Below, piece after piece: positions 19,857 through 51,551 of a DNA stretch of 64,000 nt (position 1 is its first letter; each line of letters starts with the position of its first letter). The translations under genes and the position numbers were made by a program. This DNA is from Dehalococcoidia bacterium (GTDB lineage: Bacteria > Chloroflexota > Dehalococcoidia > Lucifugimonadales > UBA3495), in NCBI GenBank assembly GCA_965203195.1, contig OZ241860.1, positions 642,334 to 706,333 on the forward strand, read 5' to 3'. Under the pieces are notes generated by a model, which was not told the DNA's origin, did no database searches, and saw only the letters and a program-made list of their open reading frames with translations.

Positions 19857-20348
19857 TTAACGATCGCTGGCAGTGACGCCTTCGGGCCAGAAAAGTTCGT
19901 ACAGCCGCTGCGACAGCTGTTCGCACAGGCGCACGCCACTGGCGACGCGCGCCGGCGAGGCTTCGTCCTCATAAAAGTTCGTGTGCAGGTAGCGGGCGAC
20001 GCTGAAAGCGTTGTTGAGCCAAGTCTCCGTGTCGGCATCGCCAGATTGTCCGACCAGGGCGCTCAATTCCTCCAGCACGCTCCAGATGGCGCGGTGGGTG
20101 TGGATGACGCCGCCGTGGTGGGCGCTGATGGCTTTGACGGTTTCGGCGACCATCCCCCACGCCTTGTTGGAGGCTTGGGGCAAGTCGCCATCCTCCCGGA
20201 GGTGTTTCCAGGCGCCAGCGCGGAAATCACGGCTCATGCGGGCGTACTTTGCCGGCGACCGGCTGGCGTCATTAGGGGATGGCCGGTCGCGCACGGATGC
20301 CAGGCCGCGCCTGACCGCCGCCGCAGTGTCGTTAGCGGAGTAAATCAT
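19857..20348 (-). CDS. PaREP1-like / HEPN-fold-like all-helical protein (paralogue 1)
   Basis: 163 aa. The segment AWKHLREDGDLPQASNKAWGMVAETVKAISAHHG resembles the PaREP1 pattern (..GD..QASEK.WGA...A.KA.A...). Confidence 0.5.
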   Translation of the reverse strand: MIYSANDTAAAVRRGLASVRDRPSPNDASRSPAKYARMSRDFRAGAWKHLREDGDLPQASNKAWGMVAETVKAISAHHGGVIHTHRAIWSVLEELSALVGQSGDADTETWLNNAFSVARYLHTNFYEDEASPARVASGVRLCEQLSQRLYELFWPEGVTASDR

Positions 20349-20390
20349 CGGGTTGCCTTTTGCCGACGGACGCCGGCGATGGGGGGTTCA

Positions 20391-20873
20391 CTAATCAGAG
20401 GCGTCGGCGCCTTCGGGCCAGAACGTTTGGTAGAGCAGCTGCGACAGCGTCTCACACAGCACAAGGCCATCGGCAACTTCTGCCGCTGTTTCCTCATCCT
20501 CATAATAATTGGAATGGAGGGCGCGCGCGGTGCGGAAGGCGTTGTTAATCAGGTTACGCGCTTCCAAATCGCCGGCGGCTTCGGCCAGCCCCGCCAGTTC
20601 CCGCATCACCAGCCAGATTGAGCCGTGAGCGTGAATGATGCCGCCGTGGTGGGCGCTGATGGCTTTGACGGTTTCGGCGACCAGCCCCCACGCCTTGCTG
20701 GAGGCTTGCGGCAAGTCGCCATCCTCCCGGAGGTGTTTCCAGGCGCCAGCGCGGAAATCCCGGCTGAGGCGGGCGTATTTCTCCGGGGTGCGGCCGGCGT
20801 CACCCGGCTGCGGCGGGTCGCGGCGCAGCGCGCGGGCCACGGCGGCGGCGATGTCATCGCTGGTATAAGTCAT
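20391..20873 (-). CDS. PaREP1-like / HEPN-fold-like all-helical protein (paralogue 2)
   Basis: 160 aa tandem paralogue of 19857..20348. The central roughly 140 nt are near-identical between the two genes. Confidence 0.5.
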   Translation of the reverse strand: MTYTSDDIAAAVARALRRDPPQPGDAGRTPEKYARLSRDFRAGAWKHLREDGDLPQASSKAWGLVAETVKAISAHHGGIIHAHGSIWLVMRELAGLAEAAGDLEARNLINNAFRTARALHSNYYEDEETAAEVADGLVLCETLSQLLYQTFWPEGADASD

Positions 20874-32839: not shown

Positions 32840-32884
32840 TTCCAGTCCTCCTAAAGGCAGCATTCCGATTGCCAGATAGGCGGC

Positions 32885-32914
32885 AGTATACCCCATCGCT
32901 GCCCTGCTCTGCAA
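32885..32914 (-). promoter_or_regulatory. candidate sigma-70 promoter for the 32839->31540 two-gene cassette
   Basis: Minus strand: TTGCAG, 18-nt spacer, TATACT. A 7-bp inverted repeat (ggcaatt..aattgcc) lies at 32937-32955, just upstream. Confidence 0.45.
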
Positions 32915-33140
32915 CTATTTATTTGACATAATCTGCGGCAATTTTGCCAATTGCCGTACCCTACTTACCTACGCCCCACACACGGCCTACCGCCGCCGCG
33001 ATGCGGCCCGCCATCCGTTCCGCCAAGCCGCGCGCCTGTTCTACCGCCGCAGCCTCCGCTTCCAGCTCGGACACTATGGCCTGCTGGACGGCAAGCGGCG
33101 GACAGGGCGATGGGTATGGCCGCAATGTCACGCTGGGCGT

Positions 33141-33449
33141 CTAGAGCGGTACTCCGACGAATTTGATAAGCCGTGAGGCGACCGCCCAAGTGATGCCTGC
33201 TGACAGTAAGAAGCCTGCACCATACACCATCAGGATATTCCCAATGGCATAGCGACCATCGGAACGTTCTATCAGCAATGACGCAGCGCGGCGGGTAACT
33301 GCATGAACTGTGTTCCAGGTTGCCAGGTAAGTCCCGATGACAAAGAACTTTCCCCAAGCATCGTTGCCTTCCATTGCCAGGAGCACAGCCCCTACGAACA
33401 GTGCAATGGTCAGTCCAGCGGACCCCAAATGCAGTGCTATATTAGCCAT
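33141..33449 (-). CDS. hypothetical small 3-TM membrane protein
   Basis: ORF trimmed to MANIALH behind a GAGGAGG RBS, 102 aa. It starts 40 nt downstream of the hsdM-S stop. Confidence 0.5.
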   Translation of the reverse strand: MANIALHLGSAGLTIALFVGAVLLAMEGNDAWGKFFVIGTYLATWNTVHAVTRRAASLLIERSDGRYAIGNILMVYGAGFLLSAGITWAVASRLIKFVGVPL

Positions 33450-33489
33450 CTGGAACCTCCTCAGTGCGCGATGACGTACCAAGCTTCGT

Positions 33490-35418: not shown

Positions 35419-35427
35419 AGCAACCTC

Positions 35428-38004: not shown

Positions 38005-38038
38005 CTTGGGCGCCCCTGAAAGGCCAGGCACTGTGCCG

Positions 38039-38066
38039 ATTCTACAACCGCCGGGCCGCCTGTCAA
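38039..38066 (-). promoter_or_regulatory. candidate sigma-70 promoter for hsdR-hsdMS
   Basis: Minus strand: TTGACA, 16-nt spacer, TAGAAT. It ends 35 nt upstream of the hsdR ATG. Confidence 0.5.
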
Positions 38067-38144
38067 CGCTCCCGGGCCCAACTGCCCCGCCTGCTGTGCC
38101 GCGCGGCCAAAGCGAAGGGGGTATGCAGTCCTGGCGGCCGTTGA

Positions 38145-38246
38145 GGGCTGCCAGGGCGCGCCAGTCGCCGGGATCTGCGCTCGCTCAACGACGCCGGCAT
38201 CGACCTGGTGTGCATTGACCCGCCCTTTGACCGGAATGAGGATTGA
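38145..38246 (+). pseudogene. relic of a DNA methyltransferase (DPPF motif fragment)
   Basis: A short frame bounded by stop codons reads GLPGRASRRDLRSLNDAGIDLVCIDPPFDRNED*. It resembles the ..LRSLPD.S[VI]DL[IV].[TI]DPP[YF] region of N4/N6 methyltransferases. Confidence 0.35.
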
Positions 38247-38333
38247 CGGCCGCAGCGCAAGGCGTGGCTATCCCGTGATATTATTGGTGGGGCAGTGGTC
38301 CGGTCAAACTGCCTGTTCCTGTCCCGAGCGATT

Positions 38334-39539
38334 ATGAATGCTGCCGCCGACAACCATCCCGCAACGCCGGCGCCGGCATCCGCCAGCGCCGGTCAGCGCG
38401 CCACCGCCCGCGTGCCGGTGGCGCCGGTCGTGTTGCGCTGGGCGATGGCGCGCTCCGGCAAAGACCCGGCGGCGCTGCATCAGCGATTCGTCAAGTTGGA
38501 CGCCTGGGAACGGGGCGAAACAGCCCCTACCCTCCATCAGCTGGAGGATTTCGCCAGGGCCACTTATGTGCCCGTGGGCTATCTGTTCCTCCCGGAACCG
38601 CCGGATGAGGAAATGCCAATCCCCGACCTGCGTACCATTGACGGCCAGGGCGTCGGACATCCCAGCGCCAACCTGCTGGACACCATTTACATCTGCCAGC
38701 GGCGGCAGGATTGGTATCGCGAGTATGCGCTGTCCATCGGAGAGGAGCCGCTGGCCTTTATCGGCTCGGCAAGCCTCAACAGCCCGGCCGGGGAGACGGC
38801 CGCCAGGATGCGGCAGGATTTGAACCTGGACACCGATAGGTGGCGCCGGCACTCCGGTTGGGAGGAATCCATGCGGGATTTTATTGACCAGGTTGAGGAC
38901 GCCGGCATACTGGTGATGGTCAGCGGCATTGTGGGCAATAATACCAGACGGAAGCTGGAACCGCAGGAGTTTCGCGGGTTTGCGCTGTGCGACGATCTGG
39001 CTCCGCTGGTGTTTATCAACAATGCCGATGCCAGGGCGGCGCAGATGTTCACGCTGGCCCACGAACTGGCGCACTTGTGGCACGGGGTATCGGCTCTCTC
39101 CGATGCCAGCCCAAGGCCGGCGCCGGATCGTCGTGTGGAAGCGTGGTGCAACGGCGTGGCGGCAGAACTGCTGCTGCCGCTGGCAGAACTGGAGCAAATC
39201 CTGCCACCCGGCAGCAACCCGGTAGATGAAATCCAAAATATCCGGCGTCGTTTTAAGGTTAGCAGTCTGGTCGTCTTGCGCTGTCTTTATGAAGCCGGCC
39301 GGCTGTCCGATGACGAATTTGAGCAGGCTTATGATACCGAGCGGCAACGGATTCGGCCCCAGTCAGGCAGTGGTGGCAACTTTTACCCGACACTGATGGC
39401 GCGGGTAGGTCGTCGCTTCGCGCTAGCGGTGGTGCGAAACGCTGCCGCCGGCGAAACCCTGTACCGGGACGCTTACGGGCTCCTCGGCATCAAAAAAACG
39501 GCCACTTTCAACGAACTGCGCGCGCAGTTAGGATGTTAG
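38334..39539 (+). CDS. XRE-type HTH + ImmA/IrrE family metallopeptidase
   Basis: Start at MNAAADN. An HTH-like N-terminal region is followed by the zinc motif HELAHLWHG (HExxH). 401 aa. Confidence 0.75.
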   Translation: MNAAADNHPATPAPASASAGQRATARVPVAPVVLRWAMARSGKDPAALHQRFVKLDAWERGETAPTLHQLEDFARATYVPVGYLFLPEPPDEEMPIPDLRTIDGQGVGHPSANLLDTIYICQRRQDWYREYALSIGEEPLAFIGSASLNSPAGETAARMRQDLNLDTDRWRRHSGWEESMRDFIDQVEDAGILVMVSGIVGNNTRRKLEPQEFRGFALCDDLAPLVFINNADARAAQMFTLAHELAHLWHGVSALSDASPRPAPDRRVEAWCNGVAAELLLPLAELEQILPPGSNPVDEIQNIRRRFKVSSLVVLRCLYEAGRLSDDEFEQAYDTERQRIRPQSGSGGNFYPTLMARVGRRFALAVVRNAAAGETLYRDAYGLLGIKKTATFNELRAQLGC

Positions 39540-39543
39540 CCCG

Positions 39544-40062
39544 ATGGCCTACGTCGTGGACAGCAACGGCTTTATTCAAGCCGACAATCTTTATTACAGC
39601 AGGGATTTCTGCCCGGCGTACTGGGATTGGCTACAAGCAGAGGGGCAAGCCGGCCGGGTTATCAGCATAGACCGGGTCTATACCGAAATTCAGGCGAAAC
39701 AGGATGACCTCGCTCAGTGGGCGTCCCGGCCGGAAGTGCGCGGCCTGTTCCTGCCTTCCGGCGATGCGGCAACGGTGGCAGCTTTCAGGCGTATCGTTGC
39801 TTGGGTGCAATCCCGCCAGCGCAATGACGGCAGCCAATTTTACCGCAATGCGGCGCGGAACGATTTCTTTGGCGGCGGGGCGGATCCATACCTCATTGCC
39901 TACGCCCTGGCGCAAGGTCATACCGTTGTAACCGTAGAAGGCAACAACCCGGCGAACCGGAGCAAAGCCCTCATTCCGGTCGTTTGCGACGGACTTGATG
40001 TAGAATGGGTTTCGATTTTTGATCTGCTGCGTCGCGAACAGGCCCGGTTTGTGCTGGGCTGA
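39544..40062 (+). CDS. DUF4411 family (PIN-like) protein
   Basis: 172 aa. The N-terminus MAYVVDSNGFIQADNLYYSRDFCPAYWDWL is typical of DUF4411. It starts 4 nt after the ImmA-like stop. Confidence 0.65.
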   Translation: MAYVVDSNGFIQADNLYYSRDFCPAYWDWLQAEGQAGRVISIDRVYTEIQAKQDDLAQWASRPEVRGLFLPSGDAATVAAFRRIVAWVQSRQRNDGSQFYRNAARNDFFGGGADPYLIAYALAQGHTVVTVEGNNPANRSKALIPVVCDGLDVEWVSIFDLLRREQARFVLG

Positions 40063-41358: not shown

Positions 41359-41514
41359 CCCCGTTTGCCCGACATATGCAAAGTGGGTCGCGCGAGGCCG
41401 GAATGGAAACGCTACCAGCCGGGGCACCGGGGGTTGACGCCGCCGCCGGCGCGCCGCTAGTGTAGCCCCATCGCAGTTTTTTTGATGCGCCTCCGGGCCG
41501 GGAGCAGAGGATAT

Positions 41515-41892
41515 ATGAGCAGGGCAATGTCCAGCCGGATACGGCCGGCGTTCTGGTGGGCGGCAGTGGTTTTGGTGACGGTTCTGGCGGCGTTGGCCGT
41601 CGTGCCGGCAACAGCGGAGGCGCAGGCGGGGCCGCTGGGCAACCCCGCCGGGCTGACGGTGGAGCCCGGCCCCGGCGTGGGCGCGGTTACTCTCGCCTGG
41701 ACGCCGGCCCCCAACGCCGCTGCGCAGGCGGTGTGGTCGGTGCGCGCCGACGGCTCCGGCAGCCGGTGGCACAACGCCGCCGGCGACGCCAATACCCTCG
41801 CCATAGATGGCCTGGAAGCCACCGGCGGGGACAGCGCGGGATGGCGAATAGGCCGGGGCGACTACGGCCAGCCTCATCAGCAGCAGAAGTAG
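41515..41892 (+). CDS. small secreted protein with FN3-like domain
   Basis: Start at MSRAMSS behind an AGAGGA RBS. Signal peptide ...AVVPATAEAQA, then the FN3-like segment LTVEPGPGVGAVTLAWTP. Confidence 0.5.
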   Translation: MSRAMSSRIRPAFWWAAVVLVTVLAALAVVPATAEAQAGPLGNPAGLTVEPGPGVGAVTLAWTPAPNAAAQAVWSVRADGSGSRWHNAAGDANTLAIDGLEATGGDSAGWRIGRGDYGQPHQQQK

Positions 41893-41913
41893 TACCAAAA
41901 TTCAAAAATAAAC

Positions 41914-41952
41914 CCCAAAATGCCCGCCATCCTTGACGACAGGCATTTTGGG
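41914..41952. repeat. perfect 11-bp inverted repeat (cccaaaatgcc / ggcattttggg) with 17-nt spacer
   Basis: Read directly from the sequence. The spacer contains the -35 box of the downstream promoter. As RNA it could also terminate the 41515..41892 transcript, since a moderately U-rich tail follows. Confidence 0.8.
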
Positions 41953-41961
41953 ATTTATGAT
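41933..41961 (+). promoter_or_regulatory. near-consensus sigma-70 promoter for the 41998->44897 operon
   Basis: TTGACG, 17-nt spacer, TATGAT, within an A/T-rich intergenic stretch. It ends 36 nt upstream of the ATG at 41998. Confidence 0.55.
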
Positions 41962-41997
41962 TTCAGCAGTCAATTTCACCAGCGAGAGGAGGGCATC

Positions 41998-43983
41998 ATG
42001 GCTATCGGAGCAGCTCGGGTAATGGCCGCCGGCAAGGCTGGCCTGGAAAGCCTGCCGATTTTCGTGGACGAGCTCATGGCGCAGGGTATCCCCCAACTCG
42101 CGCCGTGGGCGATTGACCACAGCCAGGACCAGATCGACGAGCTGCGCGCGATGACGTGGGAGCGGGTAAAAGGGAGCTGGCAATCCTTGTTTGGAATCGG
42201 CGTATCGGCGCCTGGCATAACCATGGACGCGGATACTGCACCGAACCGTCGCCTGCTCTTGCTGGAAAATCCTCTGGCTGCTGAAGCCACCGAGCTGGCG
42301 GACTCGCCGGCGCAGCTCGGCGTGTGGTGCCGCCGGCAGCTGGGCGCAATCTGCCGGGACACCGAAAATATATGGGAACACTACAAGGCCGTGAACGGAC
42401 TGACAAGCTCTTACCAGCTGGCCGTGGTGATTCCCTACTGCCCGGAGGGACCGACTTCGGGAACCGTCGGTATGTACTTGGGCGCGGCGTTGCGTGAACA
42501 TTTCAAAAATGAAGGCAAATCCGATGAACTGGTCGTGTGGGGCGTTGAACTCTGTCCGCCGATAGGTTCGGGAGGTTCCGGTGGGATGGACCGGCTGGCG
42601 GTTCAGAACGCTTTCCGCGGCTATGTCGCCCGCCAGGAACTGATAGCAGGCGTGCCTCTGTCGGAACAGGAAAACGATACCAAGCGGCACCAGTGCTTTG
42701 ACATCAACATCGTTTTTGACGGTGGTACGGCTAGGTTGCCCACTGCGTCAGGGCCGGAGGTAATATGGCAGGCTATTGACCGGGCCGCGGCGCAAGTCAC
42801 TGCCTGCCTGCTCAATGGCGCCGGCGGTGGTGACAAACCTGAGGCCACCGTACAGTTAAAGCAGGGGCAGCGCTGGAACGCTCACTTGGCGCACGTGGTC
42901 TCGGAACTGTCTTACGAACACGCCAGCCGCTATCTCACCTACCAGGTGACTTTGCCCTGGCATCGCGACCCGGAAGCTTGGGAAAACGCATCGGTCGTGG
43001 TGCGCAAAGACGCTTTGCTGTATCGCATCGACAATGACATCAAACCGCGCCTACAGTACGAACAGAATGCCATCGTCAAGAAACACTTCCAGGATCTGGC
43101 GGGGCAAGCTGACAAAATGGCCGGCATTGATATAAAAGGCAAGTGGAATAACCTTCTGACGAGAAATCGAGAAAAGGCACTGGAGGAGCTTAAAGGATTG
43201 CTCGAACGGGCTGTGCACGACGACCAACTCAATTACTTGGAAGTCCGCACTGATCCCGAAAGGATTATTGCCCGGAGCGACCTTTTCTGCATCAACCTGG
43301 TGCTTCCGGAGGAACAGCGGCATCAAGCGGCACTGATACAGCGGGACAACGGCATACCCGGGCCCATTGCCGACGTACTGGGGGACGCCGGCGTCACAGA
43401 TGTGCGAGGGCGGCTCACCACACTTTGCCGCGAGGTTCTGACTCGGAAAGACTGTGACCCAGTGGAGGCCGATTCCGAAGCGTTTTATCACGAAGTGATG
43501 TCCATATCAGTTGCCGACGGCAGCCGCGACAGCAATAACGGTTTCCGGCCCTCACGCGAGTTCCTGAACTATTTCATCGCCGCTGACCGGCGCGGCGTTC
43601 CCGGCGCGTTTTCGGAGCTGTTTTTTGACCTGAACAAGGTCATCCCCCGTCAACAGTCTGGCGATGACAGGCCAACACAGCCGGCGACTCTGATGTGGCG
43701 GTTGAGCGACGGGGATTATGATGTGCCAGTGGAGTATAGCATTCTGACGCTGGCGCGCGTCAACAGTGACGACGGTTTCAAAGACATCAGCACCTACCAG
43801 GAACTCAAGGAGAATTACGACAAGCTTACCGGCGACCGGGAAGGCTGGCGGGAATACGCCCGTTATTACGGTATAAAGCCGCCACCCGAATTGTTGTCGA
43901 ATGAAACGCCGCGGTCGCCTGTTGCCGAACCCGGCGTGAATGGCCAGCCGGCCCGCACATTTGTAGCAGGGGGAACCGCATAA
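41998..43983 (+). CDS. 661-aa hypothetical protein with a tubulin/FtsZ-like glycine-loop motif (family not recognised)
   Basis: Start at MAIGAARV behind a GGAGG RBS. It has a beta-strand/Gly-loop/helix segment, LAVVIPYCPEGPTSGTVGMYLGAALREHF, and a second Gly run, PPIGSGGSGG. There is no Walker lysine and no other catalytic motif. GC is lower than in the flanking core genes. Confidence 0.7.
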   Translation: MAIGAARVMAAGKAGLESLPIFVDELMAQGIPQLAPWAIDHSQDQIDELRAMTWERVKGSWQSLFGIGVSAPGITMDADTAPNRRLLLLENPLAAEATELADSPAQLGVWCRRQLGAICRDTENIWEHYKAVNGLTSSYQLAVVIPYCPEGPTSGTVGMYLGAALREHFKNEGKSDELVVWGVELCPPIGSGGSGGMDRLAVQNAFRGYVARQELIAGVPLSEQENDTKRHQCFDINIVFDGGTARLPTASGPEVIWQAIDRAAAQVTACLLNGAGGGDKPEATVQLKQGQRWNAHLAHVVSELSYEHASRYLTYQVTLPWHRDPEAWENASVVVRKDALLYRIDNDIKPRLQYEQNAIVKKHFQDLAGQADKMAGIDIKGKWNNLLTRNREKALEELKGLLERAVHDDQLNYLEVRTDPERIIARSDLFCINLVLPEEQRHQAALIQRDNGIPGPIADVLGDAGVTDVRGRLTTLCREVLTRKDCDPVEADSEAFYHEVMSISVADGSRDSNNGFRPSREFLNYFIAADRRGVPGAFSELFFDLNKVIPRQQSGDDRPTQPATLMWRLSDGDYDVPVEYSILTLARVNSDDGFKDISTYQELKENYDKLTGDREGWREYARYYGIKPPPELLSNETPRSPVAEPGVNGQPARTFVAGGTA

Positions 43984-44897
43984 TGACCGCCGCTATCACA
44001 CGCCGCTATTGCCGGCTGGCTGCCGCGTTTGCCGGCCTGTTTCTGGCAGCGGTGCTGCTGACGTTGCCGGCGTCGCCTATGCCGCTCAATGCCGCTGGGC
44101 CGTTCCAGGCCAACGGCTCCGTGGACATCGCTGACAAGGAATGCTCTTTCTGGCTTGACTACGACCAGGACGGCGAGGGGGACAGCCGGATTGAGACCGA
44201 CTCCGGCGGCTACGTCAGTCAGGAAACCGCAGTAGTCGGCTCCTGCGAATTCCGGCTCAACACGCCGACCGAATCCACGTTGCTGGTAGCATCGGAACTG
44301 ATTGGCTGGAACTCTGAAGTGGAGATTACCCGTGAACCCGGCTCCCCCAGAAGGGTAATCCTGCATCCGGGCGACACCGAAATACCGGGTTTGGTAGGCG
44401 GTTACCGGGTTATCATCAAACATAATGGCGCAACGCCGCGCAGCGGCAAGAGCCGTTCCGTGGGGGATGGCTATCATCACGATGTGCAAATCCCGTTATC
44501 CCTGCGTCTATTGGAAGTCACTGTGACTACCGCCGACGGCACCAGCGACCGCCTTGAGGAAAACATACAATCCGCCAGCAACGCCTACATTGTTGCCCAC
44601 GGGCGCATTGCCAAAGCGGACGATGATGGTGCCACCCCGGACGCCGTTATCACCTTGGCCAGCGAGCTTCTGGCGGAGGGCTATCCACAAATTGCCGACC
44701 GGGTACTTGCGTTGGAGGTGGCACCTGCCGGCGGTGGCGGCGTGAGCCTGTGGATGTGGATTGCCATCATCATCGCCGTTGCAGTCTTGATCGCAGCTAT
44801 TGTAATACTCTTGGCGGTATTCTCGCGCCGGCAAGGGAGAACCGGGGACAGGGAGGCGGAGGAAACCACGCCTTCTGAGCGACGCAGTCAGATGTAG
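43983..44897 (+). CDS. bitopic membrane protein (N-terminal signal/anchor, about 250-aa extracytoplasmic domain, C-terminal TM + charged tail)
   Basis: TAATG start/stop overlap with the upstream gene. N-terminal hydrophobic LAAAFAGLFLAAVLLTL, acidic DYDQDGEGDSRIETD (DxDxDG-like), and C-terminal TM LWMWIAIIIAVAVLIAAIVILLAVF followed by RRQGRTGDREAEE. Confidence 0.7.
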   Translation: MTAAITRRYCRLAAAFAGLFLAAVLLTLPASPMPLNAAGPFQANGSVDIADKECSFWLDYDQDGEGDSRIETDSGGYVSQETAVVGSCEFRLNTPTESTLLVASELIGWNSEVEITREPGSPRRVILHPGDTEIPGLVGGYRVIIKHNGATPRSGKSRSVGDGYHHDVQIPLSLRLLEVTVTTADGTSDRLEENIQSASNAYIVAHGRIAKADDDGATPDAVITLASELLAEGYPQIADRVLALEVAPAGGGGVSLWMWIAIIIAVAVLIAAIVILLAVFSRRQGRTGDREAEETTPSERRSQM

Positions 44898-45101
44898 CCC
44901 GGCGGCAACAAACGGCTGGCAAGCCGCCCCTGCGGTCATAGTGGCCAACGGCCTCCCGCCGGGTGTGGACGGCGCGCTGGACGGACGCGCACCAAAGGAA
45001 GCCTTGGCGCGGGTCAGAGAGGTTATCGACATCAATCTGACCGACTGCCCCGCCGGTGACCTGCCCACGCTGCCGGCAGCCCGCCCCGGAGGATGATTGC
45101 T

Positions 45102-45521
45102 ATGTCCAGTCCCGCCGGCATTGCCGCGCCGCGCGCCGATGCCAAACCCGCCGGCGACGCCGTGGCCGTGGCCCGTTACCGTGCGGAGAGTCGGCGTTCC
45201 CTGGCCCAGGTTGACGCCGCGCTGGCCGCGGGCGCATTGGAACAGGCGTCCCAGGCCCTCTGGGACGCCGCCGCCCACGCCGTGCGGGCCGCCGCCGCCC
45301 GGCGCGGCTGGCCCGGCGCCGCCCCCGGCGACCTGGGCCAGGTCATCATCCGCCTGATTGAGGACGAGGGCGGTTCCATTGACCTGAACACCAACTTCTT
45401 TATCGCCCACAGCTTCGACCGGATTGACCGGGAATGGGAGCTGCCCGTCAGCGCGGATGGCATTCGCCACTGCAAAGGGCCGGTCATAGATCTCCTTCGA
45501 ATGCTGGAAGGTATGAACTGA
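45102..45521 (+). CDS. PaREP1-like / HEPN-fold-like helical protein
   Basis: The segment ALEQASQALWDAAAHAVRAAAARRGW follows the same pattern as the 19857/20391 pair. Start chosen at MSSPAG, 9 nt after GGAGG; an alternative ATG lies at 45093. Confidence 0.5.
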   Translation: MSSPAGIAAPRADAKPAGDAVAVARYRAESRRSLAQVDAALAAGALEQASQALWDAAAHAVRAAAARRGWPGAAPGDLGQVIIRLIEDEGGSIDLNTNFFIAHSFDRIDREWELPVSADGIRHCKGPVIDLLRMLEGMN

Positions 45522-45886
45522 TGACTACCCAGCGCGCCCCGGAACATTACCGGGAACGCAGCCACCATTTTCTGGTGCTGGTGGACGAACTGCTGGACCA
45601 GGGCGAGTTGGAACTGGCTTGCGAATCATTATGGGGAGCGGCGGCATACGCCATTAAAGCTTTGGCAGCCCAAAGGCAATGGCCCCACAATAGCCATATC
45701 CTGCTCGAGGCGACTGTTGTACGCCTGGTTAACGATGGCGCCCCGGAACGCCTGACCGGGCAGTACTATATGACGGCCGCTTTTCATCAAGGCTTCTACG
45801 GCGACCGTATTTTCAATGCTGCCCACATCCGCTACGCCAAAGAGCCGGTTGCAGACTTCATCGCAACTCTGGAAAGGCTGGCCTGA
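45521..45886 (+). CDS. PaREP1-like / HEPN-fold-like helical protein
   Basis: TGATG overlap with the previous gene. The segment GELELACESLWGAAAYAIKALAAQRQWPHNSH is present. 121 aa. Confidence 0.5.
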   Translation: MTTQRAPEHYRERSHHFLVLVDELLDQGELELACESLWGAAAYAIKALAAQRQWPHNSHILLEATVVRLVNDGAPERLTGQYYMTAAFHQGFYGDRIFNAAHIRYAKEPVADFIATLERLA

Positions 45887-46779: not shown

Positions 46780-47343
46780 ATGACCACGGCAACTGTCGGA
46801 CAGGAACTGCTGACCGCCGCCGACCTGCTGCGCCTGCACCGCAAAGGCGTCAAGGGCGAACTGGTACGGGGGGAGTTGCGCGAAACTAGGTCATCCGGTG
46901 GTGAACACGGCGAAATTGCCGGCGCGCTGCTCGCGGAAATCCGGGCCTATGTCCGGCCGCGCCGTATGGGGCGGGTAAGCGGTTCCGACGCCGGCGTACG
47001 CCTGGAGAGAGACCCGGATACGGTGCGGGAACCGGACGTCGTCTATATCGCCGCGGAAAAATTGCCTCTGGATGTGAAGGTTAGGGGATACTATGAAGTC
47101 ATTCCCGACCTGGTGGCAGAGGTTGTGTCGCCCAACGACCGCCCGCGGGAAGTGGCCGGGCGGGTCGCGATGTGGCACTCCTACGGCGTAGCAATGGTCT
47201 GGGCGGTTTATCCGGCGCAGCGAATGGTGGCGGCGCACCCGCTGGGCGGCGCGGCGGTTATACTGGGGGAGGATGATCTGTTGGACGGCGGGGAAGTCAT
47301 TCCCGGCTTCCAATGTCTGGTGCGGGATATACTTGACCTGTAG
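46780..47343 (+). CDS. Uma2 family endonuclease
   Basis: 187 aa. PDVVYI...PDLVAEVVSPND...YGVAMVWAVYP. Confidence 0.8.
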   Translation: MTTATVGQELLTAADLLRLHRKGVKGELVRGELRETRSSGGEHGEIAGALLAEIRAYVRPRRMGRVSGSDAGVRLERDPDTVREPDVVYIAAEKLPLDVKVRGYYEVIPDLVAEVVSPNDRPREVAGRVAMWHSYGVAMVWAVYPAQRMVAAHPLGGAAVILGEDDLLDGGEVIPGFQCLVRDILDL

Positions 47344-47456
47344 CCGGCGCAATGTGACCGTCGTATGCGCTGCGCCCAAAAAGCGCAGCGGTTCCGATAC
47401 GCTCTTTGCCGGCCGGCGCCGCGCCGATGCCAAACCGGGACTAACGGAGTACGACG

Positions 47457-48023
47457 ATGATAACGGCAACTGTCGGACAGGAACTGCTGACCGCCGCCGA
47501 CCTGCTGCGCCTGCACCGCAAAGGCGTCAAGGGCGAACTGGTACGGGGGGTTTTACACGAACTTATGTCGACCAGCGGTGAACACAGCGAAGTCGCCGCC
47601 GCCCTGGCCGGCGCAATTTGGGCTCACGTCCGCCCCCGCCGGTTGGGGCGGGTGTCAGCTTCCGATGGCGGCGTCCTCCTGGAGCGCGATCCCGACACGG
47701 TCAGGGAGATGGATGTCGGCTATTTTTCCGCCGAAACCCTGCCGCTGGACGCCAGAGTGCGCCATAGCTACTACGAAGTCATCCCCGACCTGGTGGTGGA
47801 AATTGTGTCGCCCAACCACCGCCCGGGGGAAGTCGCCGACCGGATTGCCATGTGGCACGCCTACGGCGTAGCAATGGTCTGGGCCGTCTATCCGGCGCAG
47901 CGTATGGTGGCGGCGCACCCGCTGGGCGGCGCGGCGGTTATACTGGGGGAGGATGATCTGCTGGACGGCGGGGAAGTCATTCCCGGCTTCCAATGTCTGG
48001 TGCGGGATATACTTGACCCGTAG
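47457..48023 (+). CDS. Uma2 family endonuclease (tandem paralogue)
   Basis: 188 aa. The first roughly 95 nt and last roughly 150 nt are near-identical to 46780..47343; the centre has diverged. Confidence 0.8.
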   Translation: MITATVGQELLTAADLLRLHRKGVKGELVRGVLHELMSTSGEHSEVAAALAGAIWAHVRPRRLGRVSASDGGVLLERDPDTVREMDVGYFSAETLPLDARVRHSYYEVIPDLVVEIVSPNHRPGEVADRIAMWHAYGVAMVWAVYPAQRMVAAHPLGGAAVILGEDDLLDGGEVIPGFQCLVRDILDP

Positions 48024-48053: not shown

Positions 48054-49184
48054 ATGATGAAAATCCGGTCGCTTACCGCCAGAAACTACCGCAGCATACG
48101 GGACGCCACCATTGAGCTGGGCGACCTGTCGCTGTTCATCGGCGCCAACGCCACCGGGAAAAGCGCCATCCTGGATGCGCTCCGCCTGCTCAGCGAAGCC
48201 GTCCGGGGGCGCGATTTCCGCGGGCCCGTCTATTCGCGTGGCGGCTTTCTGAACCTGGCTTGGAAAGGGGCAGAAGCCGACCGGGTCGATCTCACCGTGA
48301 CTGTGGAAGGTGAGAGGAACTTTGAGTGGTCGGTAGCTTTGGAGCGGCATGGGCACGACCTTACCGTGGCGGAATCGGTATATGAAACGCCGCGAGGGTC
48401 TCCTCGCCTTGAGCTGTTGCGCGCCGAATCCGGCCGTGGTTCATGGTGGTCGGGAGAGGAGGCCGCATCGGTCAAGCTCCTGCAAGGAGCATCCGTTTGC
48501 GCTTTGGCCGCAGCTTCTGCTGACGCCTCGTTCCCGGCGCGCCAAGTCGCTGAATTTGTGAGTCAGTGGAGCTTCTTTGACCCCAGCCCCTTCTTGCTAC
48601 GACGCGACTGGAACCTGCCCAACGCCGTCGGGTTTGACCCCTATGGTCGCAACTTGGGCGAAACGCTGTATAACCTTCGGAATGCACACCCTGAAGTCCT
48701 TGACCAGGTTGTAGAAGCGACGCGGTCAATTGTAGGACTTCCTGATGAGATTGAACCTCGCGAAGCGGAGGATCGCTTCTATTTTGTGCAACGCGAACCC
48801 GGACTGCAATTCCCGGTCAATCAGATGGGCGTTTCCAGTGGAAGTTTGCGGGTACTAGCGTTGATGACCGCGCTGTACGGGCAACCGGGAACGAAGCTCA
48901 TCGGCATTGAGGAACCGGAGAACTACATTCACCCTACGGCGCTTGAAGCGCTGGTTGCGCACATTCATTCCGCACGGGAGAGTACGCAGTTTCTGATAAC
49001 TACCCACTCGTCCCTGTTGCTCAGCTACCTGGACGACCCGGCGGCAGTGAGCGTTGTCAAGCGGGATGACCACCTCGGCGCCATCATCCGGAAGGAACGC
49101 GACCCGGAGGGCGTGCGCAAAGGGCTGGAAGCGTCCGGGTTCGGCCTGGGCGAGTACCACGAAACCAAAGGGTTCGGAGGCTAA
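48054..49184 (+). CDS. AAA family ATPase (ABC/OLD-like, AAA_21-type)
   Basis: 376 aa. Walker A GANATGKSAILDAL. C-terminal signature/Walker B region LIGIEEPENYIHP and TTHS. Confidence 0.8.
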   Translation: MMKIRSLTARNYRSIRDATIELGDLSLFIGANATGKSAILDALRLLSEAVRGRDFRGPVYSRGGFLNLAWKGAEADRVDLTVTVEGERNFEWSVALERHGHDLTVAESVYETPRGSPRLELLRAESGRGSWWSGEEAASVKLLQGASVCALAAASADASFPARQVAEFVSQWSFFDPSPFLLRRDWNLPNAVGFDPYGRNLGETLYNLRNAHPEVLDQVVEATRSIVGLPDEIEPREAEDRFYFVQREPGLQFPVNQMGVSSGSLRVLALMTALYGQPGTKLIGIEEPENYIHPTALEALVAHIHSARESTQFLITTHSSLLLSYLDDPAAVSVVKRDDHLGAIIRKERDPEGVRKGLEASGFGLGEYHETKGFGG

Positions 49185-49189
49185 CCGGA

Positions 49190-49792
49190 ATGCTTAAGCG
49201 TGTATTGGTCATCGCCTCCGGCAACACGGAACGGCTGGCGCTGCCGCATTTGACCGCGCGCCTGCGGGACTATGGCATCGCCGTAGATGTCAGCATCCCG
49301 CCCAAGCATCGCGCGATTACGGCCCGCGAGGCGTACCGCATAATAGAATCGGAGCGGTATAGCTTGCCCGCCCCGGACAAGTATGTAATACTGGTTGACG
49401 CCGACGGCAAACTGCCTGAAACTGTTCTGCGACCGATACAATCGGGATTGTCGCAACGACTTGGCGAACACTTTGAAGCCGCCGTTTTGTACGCCTACGC
49501 GCAGTGGCATCTGGAAGCCTGGTTTTTTGCCGATGACCGTAACCTGCGGGCATATCTCGGTGGCCGGGCGCTGGGCAGCGTTGACACCACACAACCCGAC
49601 CGCATCCGAAACCCGAAAGAGCATCTCAAGAACCTGCTTTCCGGCTGCGCCTATGCCGCCCGGATCGCCGGCCAAATCGCATCGGCATTGGAACCTGACA
49701 CCATCGCCCAACGCAGCCCCAGCTTTGCCGGCTTCCTGTCCGCCGTCCGCAACGGCGCCGGCGATGGCGACGGAAACCGCGCCGGCGCCTGA
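49190..49792 (+). CDS. DUF4276-like protein (partner of the ATPase)
   Basis: 200 aa. It starts 6 nt after the ATPase stop. N-terminal VLVIASGNTERLALPHL and later ILVDADG resemble the DUF4276 / Toprim-like pattern. Confidence 0.55.
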   Translation: MLKRVLVIASGNTERLALPHLTARLRDYGIAVDVSIPPKHRAITAREAYRIIESERYSLPAPDKYVILVDADGKLPETVLRPIQSGLSQRLGEHFEAAVLYAYAQWHLEAWFFADDRNLRAYLGGRALGSVDTTQPDRIRNPKEHLKNLLSGCAYAARIAGQIASALEPDTIAQRSPSFAGFLSAVRNGAGDGDGNRAGA

Positions 49793-50996: not shown

Positions 50997-51551
50997 TTAT
51001 ACGGCGCCATGCAGGTTGGCGACGCCGTCGAGGAAAACGGCAAAGCTGCGCGAGCGATTGCCATTGCGGGTCAGGTGGTTGGCCATCAAGCGCGCGCCGC
51101 TGCTTTTCCCAAAGCCTGGAACCAGTCTTCGGAGCTCGCGCGAGGGTTTGGCGATGACATCCGGGTCGCGGTAGCGGGCGCGGTTTCCGATACCGCGCAA
51201 CCCGTCGTTGCCAAAAGCAGCGGCCAAAGCGTCCGGGTCGCCAATGTACCAGGATTCCAGTTCCTGGCAAACGATTCGTATCAGGACATCGTCCCTGTAG
51301 CCCGCTTGGCAAAGCTGGCGGAGGTTTTCCTTGCGCTCCAGACAATCGCCTCCGTCGTTGTCCCGCACGATAACGAAGCGGTCTCCAGGGTTGCCCCAGC
51401 CCCGTAGCTTGCGCGGGATACTGCGTTCCAGGTCGGTTTTGCCCCGGTGGGGGATACACAGGAAATCGAGGTTCGGAAAGACCCGGGGCAACAAGCCTTC
51501 CAGCAAGTCTTTCATTGATGGTTCCTCAAGCAGGAATACCAGTCTGCTCAT
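50997..51551 (-). CDS. DUF4276 family protein
   Basis: 184 aa with LVFLLEEPSMKDLLEGLLPRVF, VIVRDNDGGD and ELESWY. ATGA overlap with the upstream ATPase gene. Confidence 0.6.
   Translation of the reverse strand: MSRLVFLLEEPSMKDLLEGLLPRVFPNLDFLCIPHRGKTDLERSIPRKLRGWGNPGDRFVIVRDNDGGDCLERKENLRQLCQAGYRDDVLIRIVCQELESWYIGDPDALAAAFGNDGLRGIGNRARYRDPDVIAKPSRELRRLVPGFGKSSGARLMANHLTRNGNRSRSFAVFLDGVANLHGAV

What the first reader, a model, noticed from the sequence alone, without database searches (positions are those of the whole stretch)
41914..45886. Lower-GC four-gene cassette: tubulin/FtsZ-loop-like 661-aa protein + coupled bitopic membrane protein + two PaREP1/HEPN-like proteins; best candidate for an undescribed system
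Seen in the sequence:
- An A/T-rich intergenic region holds a near-consensus promoter (TTGACG-N17-TATGAT). A perfect 11-bp inverted repeat straddles its -35 box.
- The promoter drives a 661-aa ORF whose stop overlaps the start of a 304-aa gene (TAATG).
- The large protein has none of the usual nuclease, ATPase, protease or methylase motifs. It does have a beta-strand/Gly-loop/helix element, LAVVIPYCPEGPTSGTVGMYLGAALREHF. Next come a hydrophobic strand (LVVWGVELCPP) and a glycine run (GSGGSGG).
- To my eye this resembles the T4 GGGTGSG nucleotide loop of the tubulin/FtsZ superfamily, including the bacterial tubulin-like (Tubulin_2-type) proteins. It lacks a P-loop lysine. The extreme N-terminus (AIGAARVMAAGKAG) could be a degenerate T1 loop.
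- The partner protein has an N-terminal anchor, an extracytoplasmic domain with an acidic DxDxDG-like stretch, a C-terminal TM helix and a charged cytoplasmic tail.
- About 200 nt downstream lie two overlapping (TGATG) paralogous helical proteins. They belong to the same PaREP1/HEPN-like family as the tandem pair at 19857..20873.

Inference: a cytoplasmic NTP-binding scaffold tethered to, or signalling through, an envelope-spanning partner sits inside an accessory region rich in defence-type genes. I cannot match this architecture to any named system.
Basis: partly seen in the sequence, partly recalled or inferred. Interest (0 to 1): 0.78.

Follow-up and report, generated by a model that had tools for sequence, protein, structure and literature searches.

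The report
Hidden tubulin-like protein with membrane partner
Two translationally coupled genes encode an unannotated protein predicted to have the tubulin/FtsZ fold and a single-pass surface protein; the pair always occurs together in Dehalococcoidia genomes, so it is probably a new membrane-linked cytoskeletal module rather than a defence system.

Summary
The 661-aa protein (A, 41998-43983) matches no Pfam, NCBIfam or PADLOC model. A confident AlphaFold2 model (pLDDT 90.6) matches tubulins in the PDB (354 hits at E<=1e-3, best 2.4e-7, TM up to 0.59) and phage tubulin/PhuZ/FtsZ models.

Its most conserved residues sit where the tubulin T1, T4 and T7 loops should be. The canonical GGGTGSG signature is replaced by an invariant EGPTSGT, and no sequence method links it to known tubulins.

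The 304-aa partner (B, 43983-44897) has a signal peptide or anchor, a β-sandwich with a DxDxDG motif, a helical stalk, a TM helix and a basic tail. B follows A in 24 of 24 Dehalococcoidia loci and in three more distant branches.

The PaREP1 pair and the defence-type neighbours are shared only with a near-identical strain. The real unit is therefore two genes, not four.

Best reading (confidence 0.5): a lineage-specific, membrane-anchored tubulin-like filament or scaffold that connects to the cell surface. Nucleotide binding and polymerisation are untested.

Novelty: a new, very divergent family of a known superfamily, with a new kind of partner.

The parts
41914..41952 (.). Inverted repeat (perfect 11-bp arms at 41914-41924 and 41942-41952) that extends into a longer hairpin. 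It overlaps the -35 box and coincides with the synteny breakpoint to a near-identical relative.
   Evidence: Not conserved in other loci, so a regulatory role is unproven.
41933..41961 (+). Sigma-70-like promoter TTGACG-N17-TATGAT for the A-B operon
   Evidence: 10 of 12 matches. TTGAC-type -35 boxes lie 65-120 nt upstream of A in about half of the homologous loci. This is a consensus match only.
41984..41993 (+). Shine-Dalgarno GAGAGGAGGG, 4 nt before the ATG of A
   Evidence: GGAGG-type sites lie before the same start in homologous loci.
41998..43983 (+). Gene A: 661-aa cytoplasmic protein with a predicted tubulin/FtsZ fold. It belongs to an unnamed family.
   Evidence: AF2 model pLDDT 90.6, pTM 0.90. 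Foldseek vs PDB: 354 hits at E<=1e-3, top hits alpha/beta/gamma-tubulin. BFVD: phage tubulin/PhuZ/FtsZ. 106 homologue clusters, none with a Pfam domain or a name.
42031..42042 (+). T1-like loop, G12-K-A-G15, between strand 3-11 and helix 12-28
   Evidence: G12 and G15 are present in 58/59 members. Position assigned from the secondary-structure order of the model.
42433..42465 (+). T4-like loop P146-Y-C-P-E-G-P-T-S-G-T156 between strand 140-147 and helix 152-171. It stands in place of the GGGTGSG signature.
   Evidence: P146, C148, E150, G151, T153, S154, G155 and T156 are invariant in 59/59. The best ungapped match of residues 141-170 in beta-tubulin falls on its T4 loop (39/1000 shuffles score as well).
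42832..42843 (+). T7-like D279-K-P-E282 at the junction between helix 253-272 (H7-like) and helix 280-290 (H8-like)
   Evidence: E282 is present in 59/59 and D279 in 53/59. Position assigned from the model's secondary structure. No 3D check was possible.
43903..43980 (+). Disordered, acidic C-terminal linker of A, ending in a semi-conserved NG[QH]-x11 peptide
   Evidence: pLDDT <50 for residues 636-661. NG occurs in the last 25 aa of 56/96 homologues against a 9.5% background; the last 40 aa carry a net charge of -3.2.
43983..44897 (+). Gene B: 304-aa bitopic or type I membrane protein, translationally coupled to A. Signal peptide or anchor (residues 3-27), beta-sandwich (48-198), three-helix stalk (200-243), TM helix (256-285), basic tail.
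   Evidence: It follows A in 24/24 loci.
44157..44183 (+). D59-x-D-x-D-G-E-G-D67, an acidic DxDxDG-type (calcium-site-like) loop in the ectodomain, lying between the invariant C54 and C88
   Evidence: D59, D63, G66 and D67 are invariant; D61, G64 and E65 are >=90% conserved.
44748..44837 (+). C-terminal transmembrane helix of B, preceded by the conserved EGYPQIA helix and the WMW motif
45093..45886 (+). Neighbours that are not part of the module: two PaREP1/HEPN-like paralogues (45093-45521, and 45521-45886 as a 121-aa product with R96-x5-H102)
   Evidence: Linked to A-B only in the near-identical strain L037.

Best explanation
The functional unit is a two-gene, translationally coupled operon.

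Gene A encodes a very divergent member of the tubulin/FtsZ structural superfamily:
- a nucleotide-binding-type N-domain;
- a core helix corresponding to tubulin H7;
- a C-terminal domain that carries a three-helix insertion;
- an acidic disordered linker;
- a short conserved C-terminal peptide.

Gene B encodes a surface-exposed single-pass protein: a Ca-site-like β-sandwich head, a helical stalk, a TM helix and a short basic cytoplasmic tail.

The most likely mechanism is as follows. A binds a nucleotide with its T1/T4-like loops. It self-associates head-to-tail, so that the invariant T7-like Glu of one subunit completes the active site of the next. This produces a filament or oligomer under the membrane. 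B anchors that assembly to the membrane and couples it to the outside of the cell.

On this reading the module is a lineage-specific cytoskeletal and envelope-organising system of Dehalococcoidia. Published analysis says the orders Dehalococcoidales and SAR202 of this class lack the peptidoglycan (dcw) genes yet keep ftsZ; which orders these carriers belong to was not determined.

Shown here: the predicted fold, the conservation pattern, the obligate A-B pairing, the topology of B and the phyletic restriction.
Inferred only: nucleotide binding, polymerisation, A-B contact and the cellular role.
For: Fold of A:
- The AF2 model has pLDDT 90.6 and pTM 0.90.
- Foldseek vs PDB gives 354 hits at E<=1e-3. 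The top 50 are all tubulins, with E down to 2.4e-7 and TM normalised to the target of 0.41-0.59, and most alignments span roughly the whole model.
- The best viral hits are phage tubulin, PhuZ and FtsZ.

Conservation in A:
- Invariant or near-invariant residues fall in the loops that follow successive strands of the N-domain: G12/G15; D40-H41; N91; P146-T156; E184/C186/P187; D241-G-G.
- They also fall in the H7-like helix (D261, R262, A264-A265-Q266) and at the H7/H8 junction (D279, E282).
- A conserved acidic residue at the T7 position is needed only when another subunit's nucleotide is contacted. This rests on established FtsZ/tubulin knowledge.

Domain layout of A: core, then disordered acidic linker, then conserved C-terminal peptide. 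This parallels FtsZ.

Pairing with B:
- B follows A in 24/24 GTDB loci, mostly with overlapping stop and start, and no third gene is conserved.
- Distant branches (P0166, P0169, P0148) also have a B-like partner immediately downstream.
- Pairwise identities of A and B correlate across loci (r = 0.79).

Topology of B: a positively charged N-terminus, an invariant Cys pair plus DxDxDG in the middle domain, and a basic tail after the last TM helix.

Context: canonical ftsZ/ftsA are reported in Dehalococcoidales and SAR202 genomes, which have lost the peptidoglycan dcw genes (PMC10608941). That makes A an additional paralogue rather than the division protein.
Against: - No sequence method links A to tubulin/FtsZ. 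There are no Pfam or NCBIfam hits in 59 members. The profile search of PDB sequences found no tubulin or FtsZ even at E<=10. hhalign probability was 0.1. A search seeded from the most distant clade found no bridging sequences.
- The GGGTGSG signature kept by all characterised nucleotide-binding tubulin families is replaced by EGPTSGT, so GTP binding may be altered or lost.
- The T1 and T7 assignments rest on secondary-structure order.
- The cytoplasmic tail of B is only 0-6 residues long in some homologues (L013, L015, L026), which argues against a universal tail-to-A contact.
- There are no expression, localisation or biochemical data.
Confidence: 0.5

Rival explanations
1. Transmembrane signalling pair. 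B acts as a receptor whose Ca-site-like ectodomain senses an external ligand or the state of the envelope. A is a non-filamentous nucleotide-dependent switch or dimerising scaffold that relays the signal inside the cell.
For: - B has an ectodomain with an invariant DxDxDG loop and a Cys pair, a single TM helix and a short tail.
- Pairing with A is strict.
- The altered T4 loop could mean different nucleotide chemistry.
- The T7-like Glu is equally compatible with a dimer.
Against: - No output domain (DNA-binding, kinase or cyclase) is present in A or conserved nearby.
- The very short tails of B in some homologues give little surface for signal transfer.
- All characterised proteins with the tubulin fold act by polymerising (established knowledge).
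Confidence: 0.2
2. A is a structural pseudo-GTPase. It keeps the tubulin fold but binds no nucleotide, and it serves as a static cytoplasmic platform or assembly factor for the surface protein B.
For: - The canonical GGGTGSG is absent.
- No sequence similarity to nucleotide-binding tubulins was detected.
- Invariant C148 and C186 next to the loop suggest a different chemistry, such as metal binding or redox.
Against: - The loop P146-T156 is invariant across sequences that are otherwise only 34% identical, and T1-, T6- and T7-like positions are also conserved. This is the pattern expected of a ligand pocket with an inter-subunit catalytic residue.
- In the distant clade the cysteines are lost, but G-x-T-S-G is kept (NPDGQTSG).
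Confidence: 0.15
3. Anti-phage or conflict system. A is an NTP-dependent sensor or oligomeriser, and B is a membrane effector that kills or arrests the infected cell. This is in the spirit of the first reader's proposal.
For: - In this window the pair is flanked by type I R-M, M78+DUF4411, Uma2, AAA_15/21+DUF4276 and PaREP1/HEPN genes.
- The operon has lower GC than its flanks in 18/20 loci.
- Tubulin-domain proteins are known in some GTPase-centred conflict systems (PMC7159879).
Against: - There are no PADLOC hits and no relatives on viral contigs.
- In other genomes the flanks are mostly metabolic or housekeeping genes such as leuCD, methionine synthase, uvrB, fumarase and amidohydrolase.
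- In the 98%-identical relative the upstream flank is infC-rpmI-rplT.
- Synteny blocks are shared among subsets of genomes, and only one genome was found with two copies; these suggest mainly vertical descent, although no gene-versus-species tree was built.
- None of the components of the published tubulin conflict systems (vWA, HSP70, GAP1-type GTPase) is present.
- B has a folded ectodomain rather than a pore-forming or lytic architecture.
Confidence: 0.1
4. DNA-segregation system of the TubZ/PhuZ type, belonging to a plasmid, phage or integrated element.
For: The best viral structural matches are phage tubulin and PhuZ.
Against: - The loci lie on 2.6-4.5 Mb chromosomes or on large or unplaced MAG contigs; none could be tied to a plasmid or phage.
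- There are no viral contigs.
- The conserved partner is a surface membrane protein, not a DNA-binding adaptor, and no centromere-like repeats were noted.
Confidence: 0.03

Closest known systems
FtsZ with its membrane anchors (FtsA, ZipA, SepF)
   Same: - Predicted tubulin/FtsZ two-domain fold.
- Layout of core, disordered linker and conserved C-terminal peptide.
- A dedicated membrane protein encoded next to it.
- A conserved acidic residue at the T7 position.
   Different: - No detectable sequence similarity.
- EGPTSGT instead of GGGTGTG.
- 661 aa, with a three-helix insertion and extra C-terminal elements.
- The partner is mostly extracytoplasmic (β-sandwich plus stalk) with only a short tail. 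ZipA, FtsA and SepF instead bind FtsZ through cytoplasmic domains.
- The carrier lineages are reported to keep canonical ftsZ/ftsA (PMC10608941).
FtsZl1 / Pfam Tubulin_2 (Makarova & Koonin 2010, PMC2875224)
   Same: - A highly divergent prokaryotic tubulin-superfamily protein with family-specific inserts between T1 and T4.
- Helical regions after the GTPase domain.
- A predicted membrane-associated role.
- It coexists with canonical FtsZ.
   Different: - FtsZl1 keeps GGGTG(S/T)G, is about 1000 aa long with a long coiled coil, and lacks recognisable T6-H7 and C-terminal domains.
- FtsZl1 sits in operons with vWA, P-loop GTPase, OmpA and kinase genes.
- Here there is no PF13809 match, the H7- and C-domain-like parts are present in the model, and the only partner is B.
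FtsZl2 (Proteobacteria; same paper)
   Same: A stand-alone divergent tubulin-like protein with an extra region after the GTPase domain.
   Different: FtsZl2 retains all canonical motifs, is detectable with PF00091 by HHpred, is restricted to Proteobacteria and has no conserved neighbour.
CetZ, TubZ/RepX, PhuZ, BtubA/B (other prokaryotic and phage tubulins)
   Same: Same fold. PhuZ-like and phage tubulins are the best viral structural matches.
   Different: - All of these are recognisable by sequence profiles and keep the Gly-rich T4 signature.
- TubZ and PhuZ are plasmid- or phage-borne and work with DNA adaptors or phage nuclei.
- None has an obligate surface-protein partner.
Tubulin-containing GTPase-centred conflict systems (Kaur, Burroughs, Iyer & Aravind 2020, PMC7159879)
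   Same: A tubulin-domain protein in a multigene locus with membrane-associated partners.
   Different: Those systems are defined by GAP1-type GTPases, vWA, FNIII and HSP70 components, in Firmicutes and Actinobacteria. None of these is present here.

Membership tests
Tubulin/FtsZ superfamily | Two-domain fold: six-stranded nucleotide-binding domain, core helix H7, C-terminal (intermediate) domain | tested here: met
   AF2 model pLDDT 90.6, pTM 0.90. Foldseek vs PDB: 354 hits at E<=1e-3; top 50 all tubulin; best E 2.4e-7; TM normalised to target up to 0.59. BFVD: tubulin, PhuZ and FtsZ on top. This rests on a predicted structure, not a solved one.
Tubulin/FtsZ superfamily | Match to sequence profiles (Pfam PF00091 Tubulin, PF13809 Tubulin_2, the FtsZ_C and Tubulin_C domains) or to solved family members | tested here: not met
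   No Pfam family among 59 members at E<=10. NCBIfam gave none. The profile search of PDB sequences gave no tubulin or FtsZ at E<=10.
Tubulin/FtsZ superfamily | T4 signature [SAG]-G-G-T-G-[SA]-G between S4 and H4 | tested here: not met
   The loop at the equivalent position reads E150-G-P-T-S-G-T156 and is invariant in 59/59. Only G151, T153 and the small residues line up. The best ungapped match of residues 141-170 in beta-tubulin falls on its T4 loop, but the match is weak (39/1000 shuffles).
Tubulin/FtsZ superfamily | Gly-rich T1 loop after S1, and an acidic catalytic residue in T7 before H8 | tested here: inconclusive
   G12-x-x-G15 is present in 58/59 members, and the distant clade has GQAG. 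D279 is present in 53/59 and E282 in 59/59, at the junction of helices 253-272 and 280-290. Positions were assigned from secondary-structure order only. Segment similarity is not significant, and no coordinates were available.
Tubulin/FtsZ superfamily | GTP binding, polymerisation-dependent GTPase activity, filament formation | not testable with these tools
   Needs biochemistry or electron microscopy.
FtsZl1 (Tubulin_2) membrane-remodelling system | PF13809 domain with GGGTG(S/T)G; long coiled coil; operon with vWA, P-loop GTPase, OmpA or kinase genes | tested here: not met
   No PF13809 hit. The signature is different. The only conserved neighbour in 24 loci is B. Family definition taken from PMC2875224.
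TubZ/PhuZ-type segregation systems | Plasmid or phage location with an adjacent DNA-binding adaptor or centromere | tested here: not met
   The loci are on Dehalococcoidia MAG chromosomes or contigs, none identified as a plasmid or phage. There were no confirmed hits in 2.9 million viral contigs. The partner is a membrane protein.
Known anti-phage defence systems | Match to defence-system protein models; recurrent location in defence islands | tested here: not met
   PADLOC gave no hits for A, B or the two PaREP1-like proteins. Seven annotated neighbourhoods from other genomes are mostly metabolic or housekeeping. The defence-type flank is shared only with the near-identical strain, and only downstream. 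No formal enrichment statistic was computed.
PaREP1/HEPN (the two downstream genes only) | Match to Pfam PF05942 or PF05168; HEPN R-x4-6-H motif | tested here: inconclusive
   The 45434/45521-45886 product scores 25.4 bits against a cut-off of 24.4, matches HEPN at E 0.012, and carries R96-x5-H102. The 45093-45521 product scores 18.3 bits (below the cut-off) but is 35% identical to its neighbour. These genes are not conserved next to A-B.

The most novel reading that the evidence does not exclude
A previously unrecognised branch of the tubulin/FtsZ superfamily is invisible to every sequence profile and carries a rewritten nucleotide loop. It forms cytoplasmic filaments that are wired through a dedicated single-pass stalk-and-head protein to the outside of the cell. 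This would be a bacterial transmembrane link between cytoskeleton and surface, organising the envelope, shape or surface layer of carriers that may, like Dehalococcoidales and SAR202, have lost peptidoglycan. The stalk length is adjustable through repeats of the GYP helical unit.
Probability: 0.3. Interest if true: 0.85.

Novelty: new variant of a known kind. Interest (0 to 1): 0.62.

Why it matters
New deep branches of the tubulin/FtsZ superfamily are rare, and each has revealed a distinct cell-biological machine: division, plasmid and phage DNA positioning, archaeal cell shape.

This family has three unusual properties:
- It is missed by the Pfam-based collection strategy used in surveys of the superfamily.
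- It has an invariant non-canonical nucleotide loop that tests what the fold needs in order to bind GTP.
- It comes with an obligate surface-exposed partner, which would give a direct physical route from a cytoplasmic filament to the cell exterior.

The carriers are Dehalococcoidia, a class in which the orders Dehalococcoidales and SAR202 are reported to lack a peptidoglycan wall and in which the determinants of shape and envelope organisation are unknown. That question would become testable with two small genes.

The case also shows that motif-level reading plus structure prediction can recover homology that profile searches miss.

Tried and rejected
- Pfam, NCBIfam and PADLOC scans of A, B and distant homologues gave nothing usable.
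- PF22255 (Gp44-like) hits in one subclade are below the cut-off (21-24 bits vs 27) and fall inside the GTPase-like domain. I judged them spurious.
- The profile of A against PDB sequences returned only designed helical proteins at E>0.1.
One alternative register placed DINIVFDGGT on the tubulin T4 loop. I rejected it because it would leave too few strands after it.
- Segment-level BLOSUM tests for T1 and T7 were not significant.
- A search for a sequence bridge, seeded from the most distant clade, returned only the family itself.
- The exhaustive profile search of 1.84 billion representatives found only 52 hits, all from the family or fragments of it, apart from a weak match to a repetitive protein that is probably spurious (P0175).
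- Foldseek on the B model gave only generic Ig-like or β-sandwich matches (RhoGDI, ApaG, CBM-type domains) at E about 3e-4 with low TM-scores, so the ectodomain has no specific assignment.
- The 11-bp inverted repeat as a conserved operator: rejected, because it is absent or different in other loci and imperfect in the 98%-identical relative.
- The 687-aa ORF start at 41920: rejected, because it has no Shine-Dalgarno and the homologues start at MAIGA.
- The four-gene cassette and the defence-island membership: rejected as properties of the family.
I relied on PMC10608941 instead.

Full report
**1. What is in the sequence**

The region holds four + strand genes.

- A runs 41998-43983 and encodes 661 aa. 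Its ATG lies 4 nt after GAGAGGAGGG. The same MAIGA... start with a GGAGG-type ribosome-binding site recurs in homologous loci, so the longer 687-aa ORF from 41920 is not the gene.
- B runs 43983-44897 and encodes 304 aa. It starts on the last base of A's TAA stop (CATAATGACC).
- After a 195-nt spacer come two overlapping (TGATG) paralogues, 45093-45521 and 45521-45886. They are 35% identical (E 6e-12). The second reaches the Pfam PaREP1 cut-off and the first does not.
- The tandem pair at 19857-20873 is clearly PaREP1.
- The 105-nt region upstream of A has 44% GC. It holds TTGACG-N17-TATGAT at 41933-41961 (10 of 12 consensus matches).
- It also holds the perfect 11-bp inverted repeat at 41914-41924 / 41942-41952.
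- The cassette has 60.6% GC against 64.3% for the window (6.7th percentile). GC3 is 0.68-0.69 against 0.85 in neighbouring genes.

**2. Protein A has a predicted tubulin/FtsZ fold**

A and its homologues match no Pfam, NCBIfam or PADLOC model, even at E<=10 across 59 members.

There are 106 homologue clusters at 90% identity. Nearly all are 630-720 aa long, none carries a Pfam domain, and the only name any source gives is 'hypothetical protein'. An exhaustive profile search of 1.84 billion representative proteins found only 52 hits at E<=1e-3, many of them fragments.

An AlphaFold2 model built on a 59-sequence alignment is confident, with mean pLDDT 90.6 and pTM 0.90. Only the last 26 residues are disordered.

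- Foldseek against the PDB gives 354 matches at E<=1e-3. The top 50 are all alpha-, beta- or gamma-tubulin. The best E-value is 2.4e-7 and TM-scores normalised to the target are 0.41-0.59, and most alignments span roughly the whole model.
- Against predicted viral structures the top matches are a phage 'Tubulin', PhuZ and phage FtsZ.

The order of secondary-structure elements fits the superfamily topology, with two additions:

| Element (tubulin naming) | Residues in the model |
|---|---|
| S1 | 3-11 |
| H1 | 12-28 |
| S2 | 37-40 |
| family-specific insert | between S2 and H3 |
| H3 | 104-133 |
| S4 | 140-147 |
| H4 | 152-171 |
| S5 | 178-186 |
| H5 | 199-217 |
| S6 | 236-241 |
| H7 | 253-272 |
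| H8 | 280-290 |
| S7 | 292-302 |
| three-helix insertion | 333-416 |
| remaining strands and helices of the C-terminal domain | after 416 |

**3. Conservation pattern in A**

The invariant and near-invariant residues concentrate at the loops that follow the N-domain strands, and at the junction of H7 and H8.

- After S1: G12-[KQ]-A-G15. The distant clade has GQAG.
- After S2: D40-H41.
- N91-P92.
- After S4: P146-Y-C-P-E-G-P-T-S-G-T156, of which eight positions are invariant in 59/59.
- After S5: E184, C186, P187.
- After S6: D241-G-G.
- In H7: D261, R262, A264-A265-Q266.
- Between H7 and H8: D279 (53/59) and E282 (59/59).

This is the pattern expected for a tubulin-type nucleotide pocket (T1-T6 loops and H7) plus a T7 'synergy' residue that acts on the neighbouring subunit.

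That mapping is an inference from topology. I had no model coordinates to test whether these residues cluster in space.

At the sequence level, only the T4-H4 segment finds its counterpart. The best ungapped match of residues 141-170 in beta-tubulin is [30 protein letters not shown], and 39 of 1000 shuffles score as well. The T1 and T7 segments are not significant.

The canonical GGGTGSG signature is not kept. A search seeded from the most divergent clade found no bridging sequences.

A therefore belongs to the superfamily by predicted structure. It is not a member of any described sequence family.

**4. C-terminus of A**

A is acidic (pI about 5). After the conserved ARYYG[VI]KPP segment it ends in a variable, acidic, disordered linker with net charge -3.2 over the last 40 residues.

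In many homologues the linker is followed by a short conserved peptide. NG occurs in the last 25 residues of 56 of 96 full-length homologues, against 9.5% for other 25-residue windows. In about 38 of them the N lies 14-16 residues from the end.

The layout of core, linker and C-terminal peptide is the same as in FtsZ.

**5. Protein B**

The 31-sequence alignment and the AF2 model (pLDDT 79) show the following parts:

- an N-terminal hydrophobic helix preceded by Arg residues, which is either a signal peptide or an anchor;
- a β-sandwich at residues 48-198, with invariant C54 and C88 and the loop D59-x-D-x-D-G-E-G-D67;
- three helices at 200-243 carrying the conserved LLxEGYPQIA motif;
- a WMW motif leading into a TM helix at 256-285;
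- a short basic tail with mean net charge +2.3. The tail often ends in ...RR..NM, and 34 of 58 sequences end in Met.

Foldseek finds only generic Ig-like or β-sandwich matches for B.

The positive-inside rule, the Cys pair and the acidic DxDxDG loop place the β-sandwich and the stalk outside the cell.

**6. The unit is two genes**

A scan of one genome per GTDB species found 24 loci, all in Dehalococcoidia MAGs. One of them is labelled SAR202, and one chromosome carries two copies.

In 24 of 24 loci B follows A on the same strand, usually with overlapping stop and start. No third gene is conserved. Pairwise identities of A and B correlate across loci (r = 0.79).

The pairing persists in the most distant branches:

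- P0166 is followed after 5 nt by a 343-aa protein with the same architecture.
- P0169 is followed, with overlap, by a 305-aa protein carrying LLDDGYPTQAAAVL and WQW.
- P0148 is followed by a 655-aa B-like protein in which the GYP helical unit is repeated about seven times. The result is a much longer stalk on the same head and anchor.

No relatives were found on 2.9 million viral contigs.

**7. Context**

Neighbourhoods in other genomes are variable and mostly metabolic or housekeeping, with scattered toxin-antitoxin or defence-type genes. Examples are mutS, enoyl-CoA hydratase, amidohydrolase, leuCD, methionine synthase, uvrB, fumarase, CO dehydrogenase and MFS transporters.

The PaREP1 pair, the α/β-hydrolase, the two Uma2 genes and the AAA_15/21+DUF4276 genes follow A-B only in a strain whose A-B region is 98% identical at the DNA level (L037). 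They do not follow it in the 74%-identical relative, which has a PIN gene there.

Upstream, similarity to L037 stops at window position 41918, inside the left arm of the inverted repeat. L037 has infC-rpmI-rplT, an M20 peptidase and PAC2 there. The window instead has a luciferase-like monooxygenase, M78+DUF4411 and a type I R-M system.

The 'defence-rich accessory region' therefore abuts the operon in this strain only. It is not a property of the family.

The lower GC, by contrast, is a property of the operon. A+B is less GC-rich than its flanks in 18 of 20 loci, by 3.9 points on average. This remains unexplained.

**8. Mechanism**

The best-supported reading is a membrane-associated tubulin-like assembly.

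- A binds a nucleotide and self-associates longitudinally. The invariant T7-like Glu is hard to explain otherwise.
- B anchors or couples this assembly to the membrane and projects a Ca-site-like head on a helical stalk outside the cell.
- The acidic tail and C-terminal peptide of A, together with the basic tail of B, are candidate contact elements. However, some B homologues have almost no tail (L013, L015, L026), so the contact may involve the TM region or membrane lipid instead.

According to PMC10608941, Dehalococcoidales and SAR202 keep ftsZ/ftsA next to mraZ/mraW but have lost the peptidoglycan dcw genes. Dehalococcoides mccartyi has an S-layer-like wall.

A is thus an extra paralogue in a wall-less or wall-reduced lineage, where a link between cytoskeleton and surface would make sense.

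I give this reading 0.5 and the fold assignment alone about 0.85. The rivals are:

- a non-filamentous signalling switch (0.2);
- a nucleotide-free structural platform (0.15);
- a defence system (0.1);
- a DNA-segregation system (0.03).

**9. Comparison with known systems**

- FtsZl1 (Pfam Tubulin_2) keeps GGGTG(S/T)G, is about 1000 aa long with a coiled coil, lacks recognisable H7 and C-terminal domains, and sits with vWA, GTPase and OmpA genes (PMC2875224).
- FtsZl2 is proteobacterial, keeps the canonical motifs and has no conserved partner (PMC2875224).
- The 2023 survey of the superfamily collected members with PF00091 and PF13809 (PMC9871819). It would have missed this family.
- The tubulin-containing conflict systems are defined by GAP1-type GTPases, vWA, FNIII and HSP70 components (PMC7159879).

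None of these definitions is met here.

I found no paper describing this family in the searchable library. That is not proof that none exists.

**10. Verdict**

- The tubulin-like interpretation is supported by predicted structure.
- The Tubulin_2 label, the four-gene cassette and the defence framing are not supported.
- Novelty: a new, extremely divergent family of a known superfamily, with a new kind of obligate partner.
- Interest: 0.62.

Noticed in passing
window 41912-41954 (both strands): Read as minus-strand RNA, the inverted repeat forms a 24-bp hairpin (-35.8 kcal/mol, z -7.3) followed by a U-run, which looks like a strong intrinsic terminator pointing away from gene A. As plus-strand RNA it is much weaker (-21.3 kcal/mol). 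No convincing minus-strand gene lies upstream of it. An antisense transcript from the promoter-like site at 42395-42367 is conceivable.
   Followed up: partly
window 41918; L037:7921: DNA similarity (98%) to a close relative begins exactly inside the left arm of the hairpin. Upstream, the window carries an LLM monooxygenase, M78+DUF4411 and a type I R-M system, whereas the relative carries infC-rpmI-rplT, an M20 peptidase and PAC2. This is a strain-level rearrangement or insertion junction next to the A promoter.
   Followed up: partly
L001-L025 (A+B vs flanks); window 41998-44897: The A-B operon has lower GC than its flanks in 18 of 20 loci (mean -3.9 points). In the window its GC3 is 0.68-0.69 against 0.85 in neighbouring genes. 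The cause (transfer among Dehalococcoidia, low expression or amino-acid composition) is unknown.
   Followed up: partly
L035:2354-4321: In a distant branch the B-like partner is 655 aa long because the juxtamembrane LLxxG[YF]PxQSL helical unit is repeated about seven times. This gives a long extracellular stalk between the Cys-pair β-domain and the TM helix.
   Followed up: partly
window 43903-43980 and homologues P0001-P0106: A ends in an acidic disordered linker plus a semi-conserved C-terminal peptide, with NG[QH] placed 14-16 residues from the end in about 38 of 96 homologues. This resembles the linker and C-terminal peptide of FtsZ.
   Followed up: partly
L006 and L007 (chromosome OZ220731.1): One Dehalococcoidia chromosome carries two diverged copies of the A-B pair (60% and 53% identity to the window's A). 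Each copy has its own B.
   Followed up: no
window 48054-49792 (+) and 50997-52732 (-): There are two AAA_15/AAA_21 ATPase + DUF4276 gene pairs in opposite orientation, plus tandem Uma2 genes at 46780-48023 that are about 83% identical at the DNA level.
   Followed up: no
window 31982-40062: A cluster of defence-type genes: DUF6731 (31982-32914), a type I R-M methylase (33490-35418) and its HsdR-like helicase (35428-38031), and an M78 peptidase + DUF4411 pair (38295-40062).
   Followed up: no
window 45521-45886: The second PaREP1-like protein (121 aa from the TGATG start) carries R96-x5-H102, a HEPN-type motif. Its upstream paralogue lacks this motif. Single PaREP1 genes are also scattered in related genomes (L027, L028).
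   Followed up: partly
window 41482-41892: An ORF of 136 aa with a signal-peptide-like N-terminus and no Pfam match lies directly upstream of the hairpin. It is absent from the close relative L037. I did not establish whether it is a real gene.
   Followed up: no
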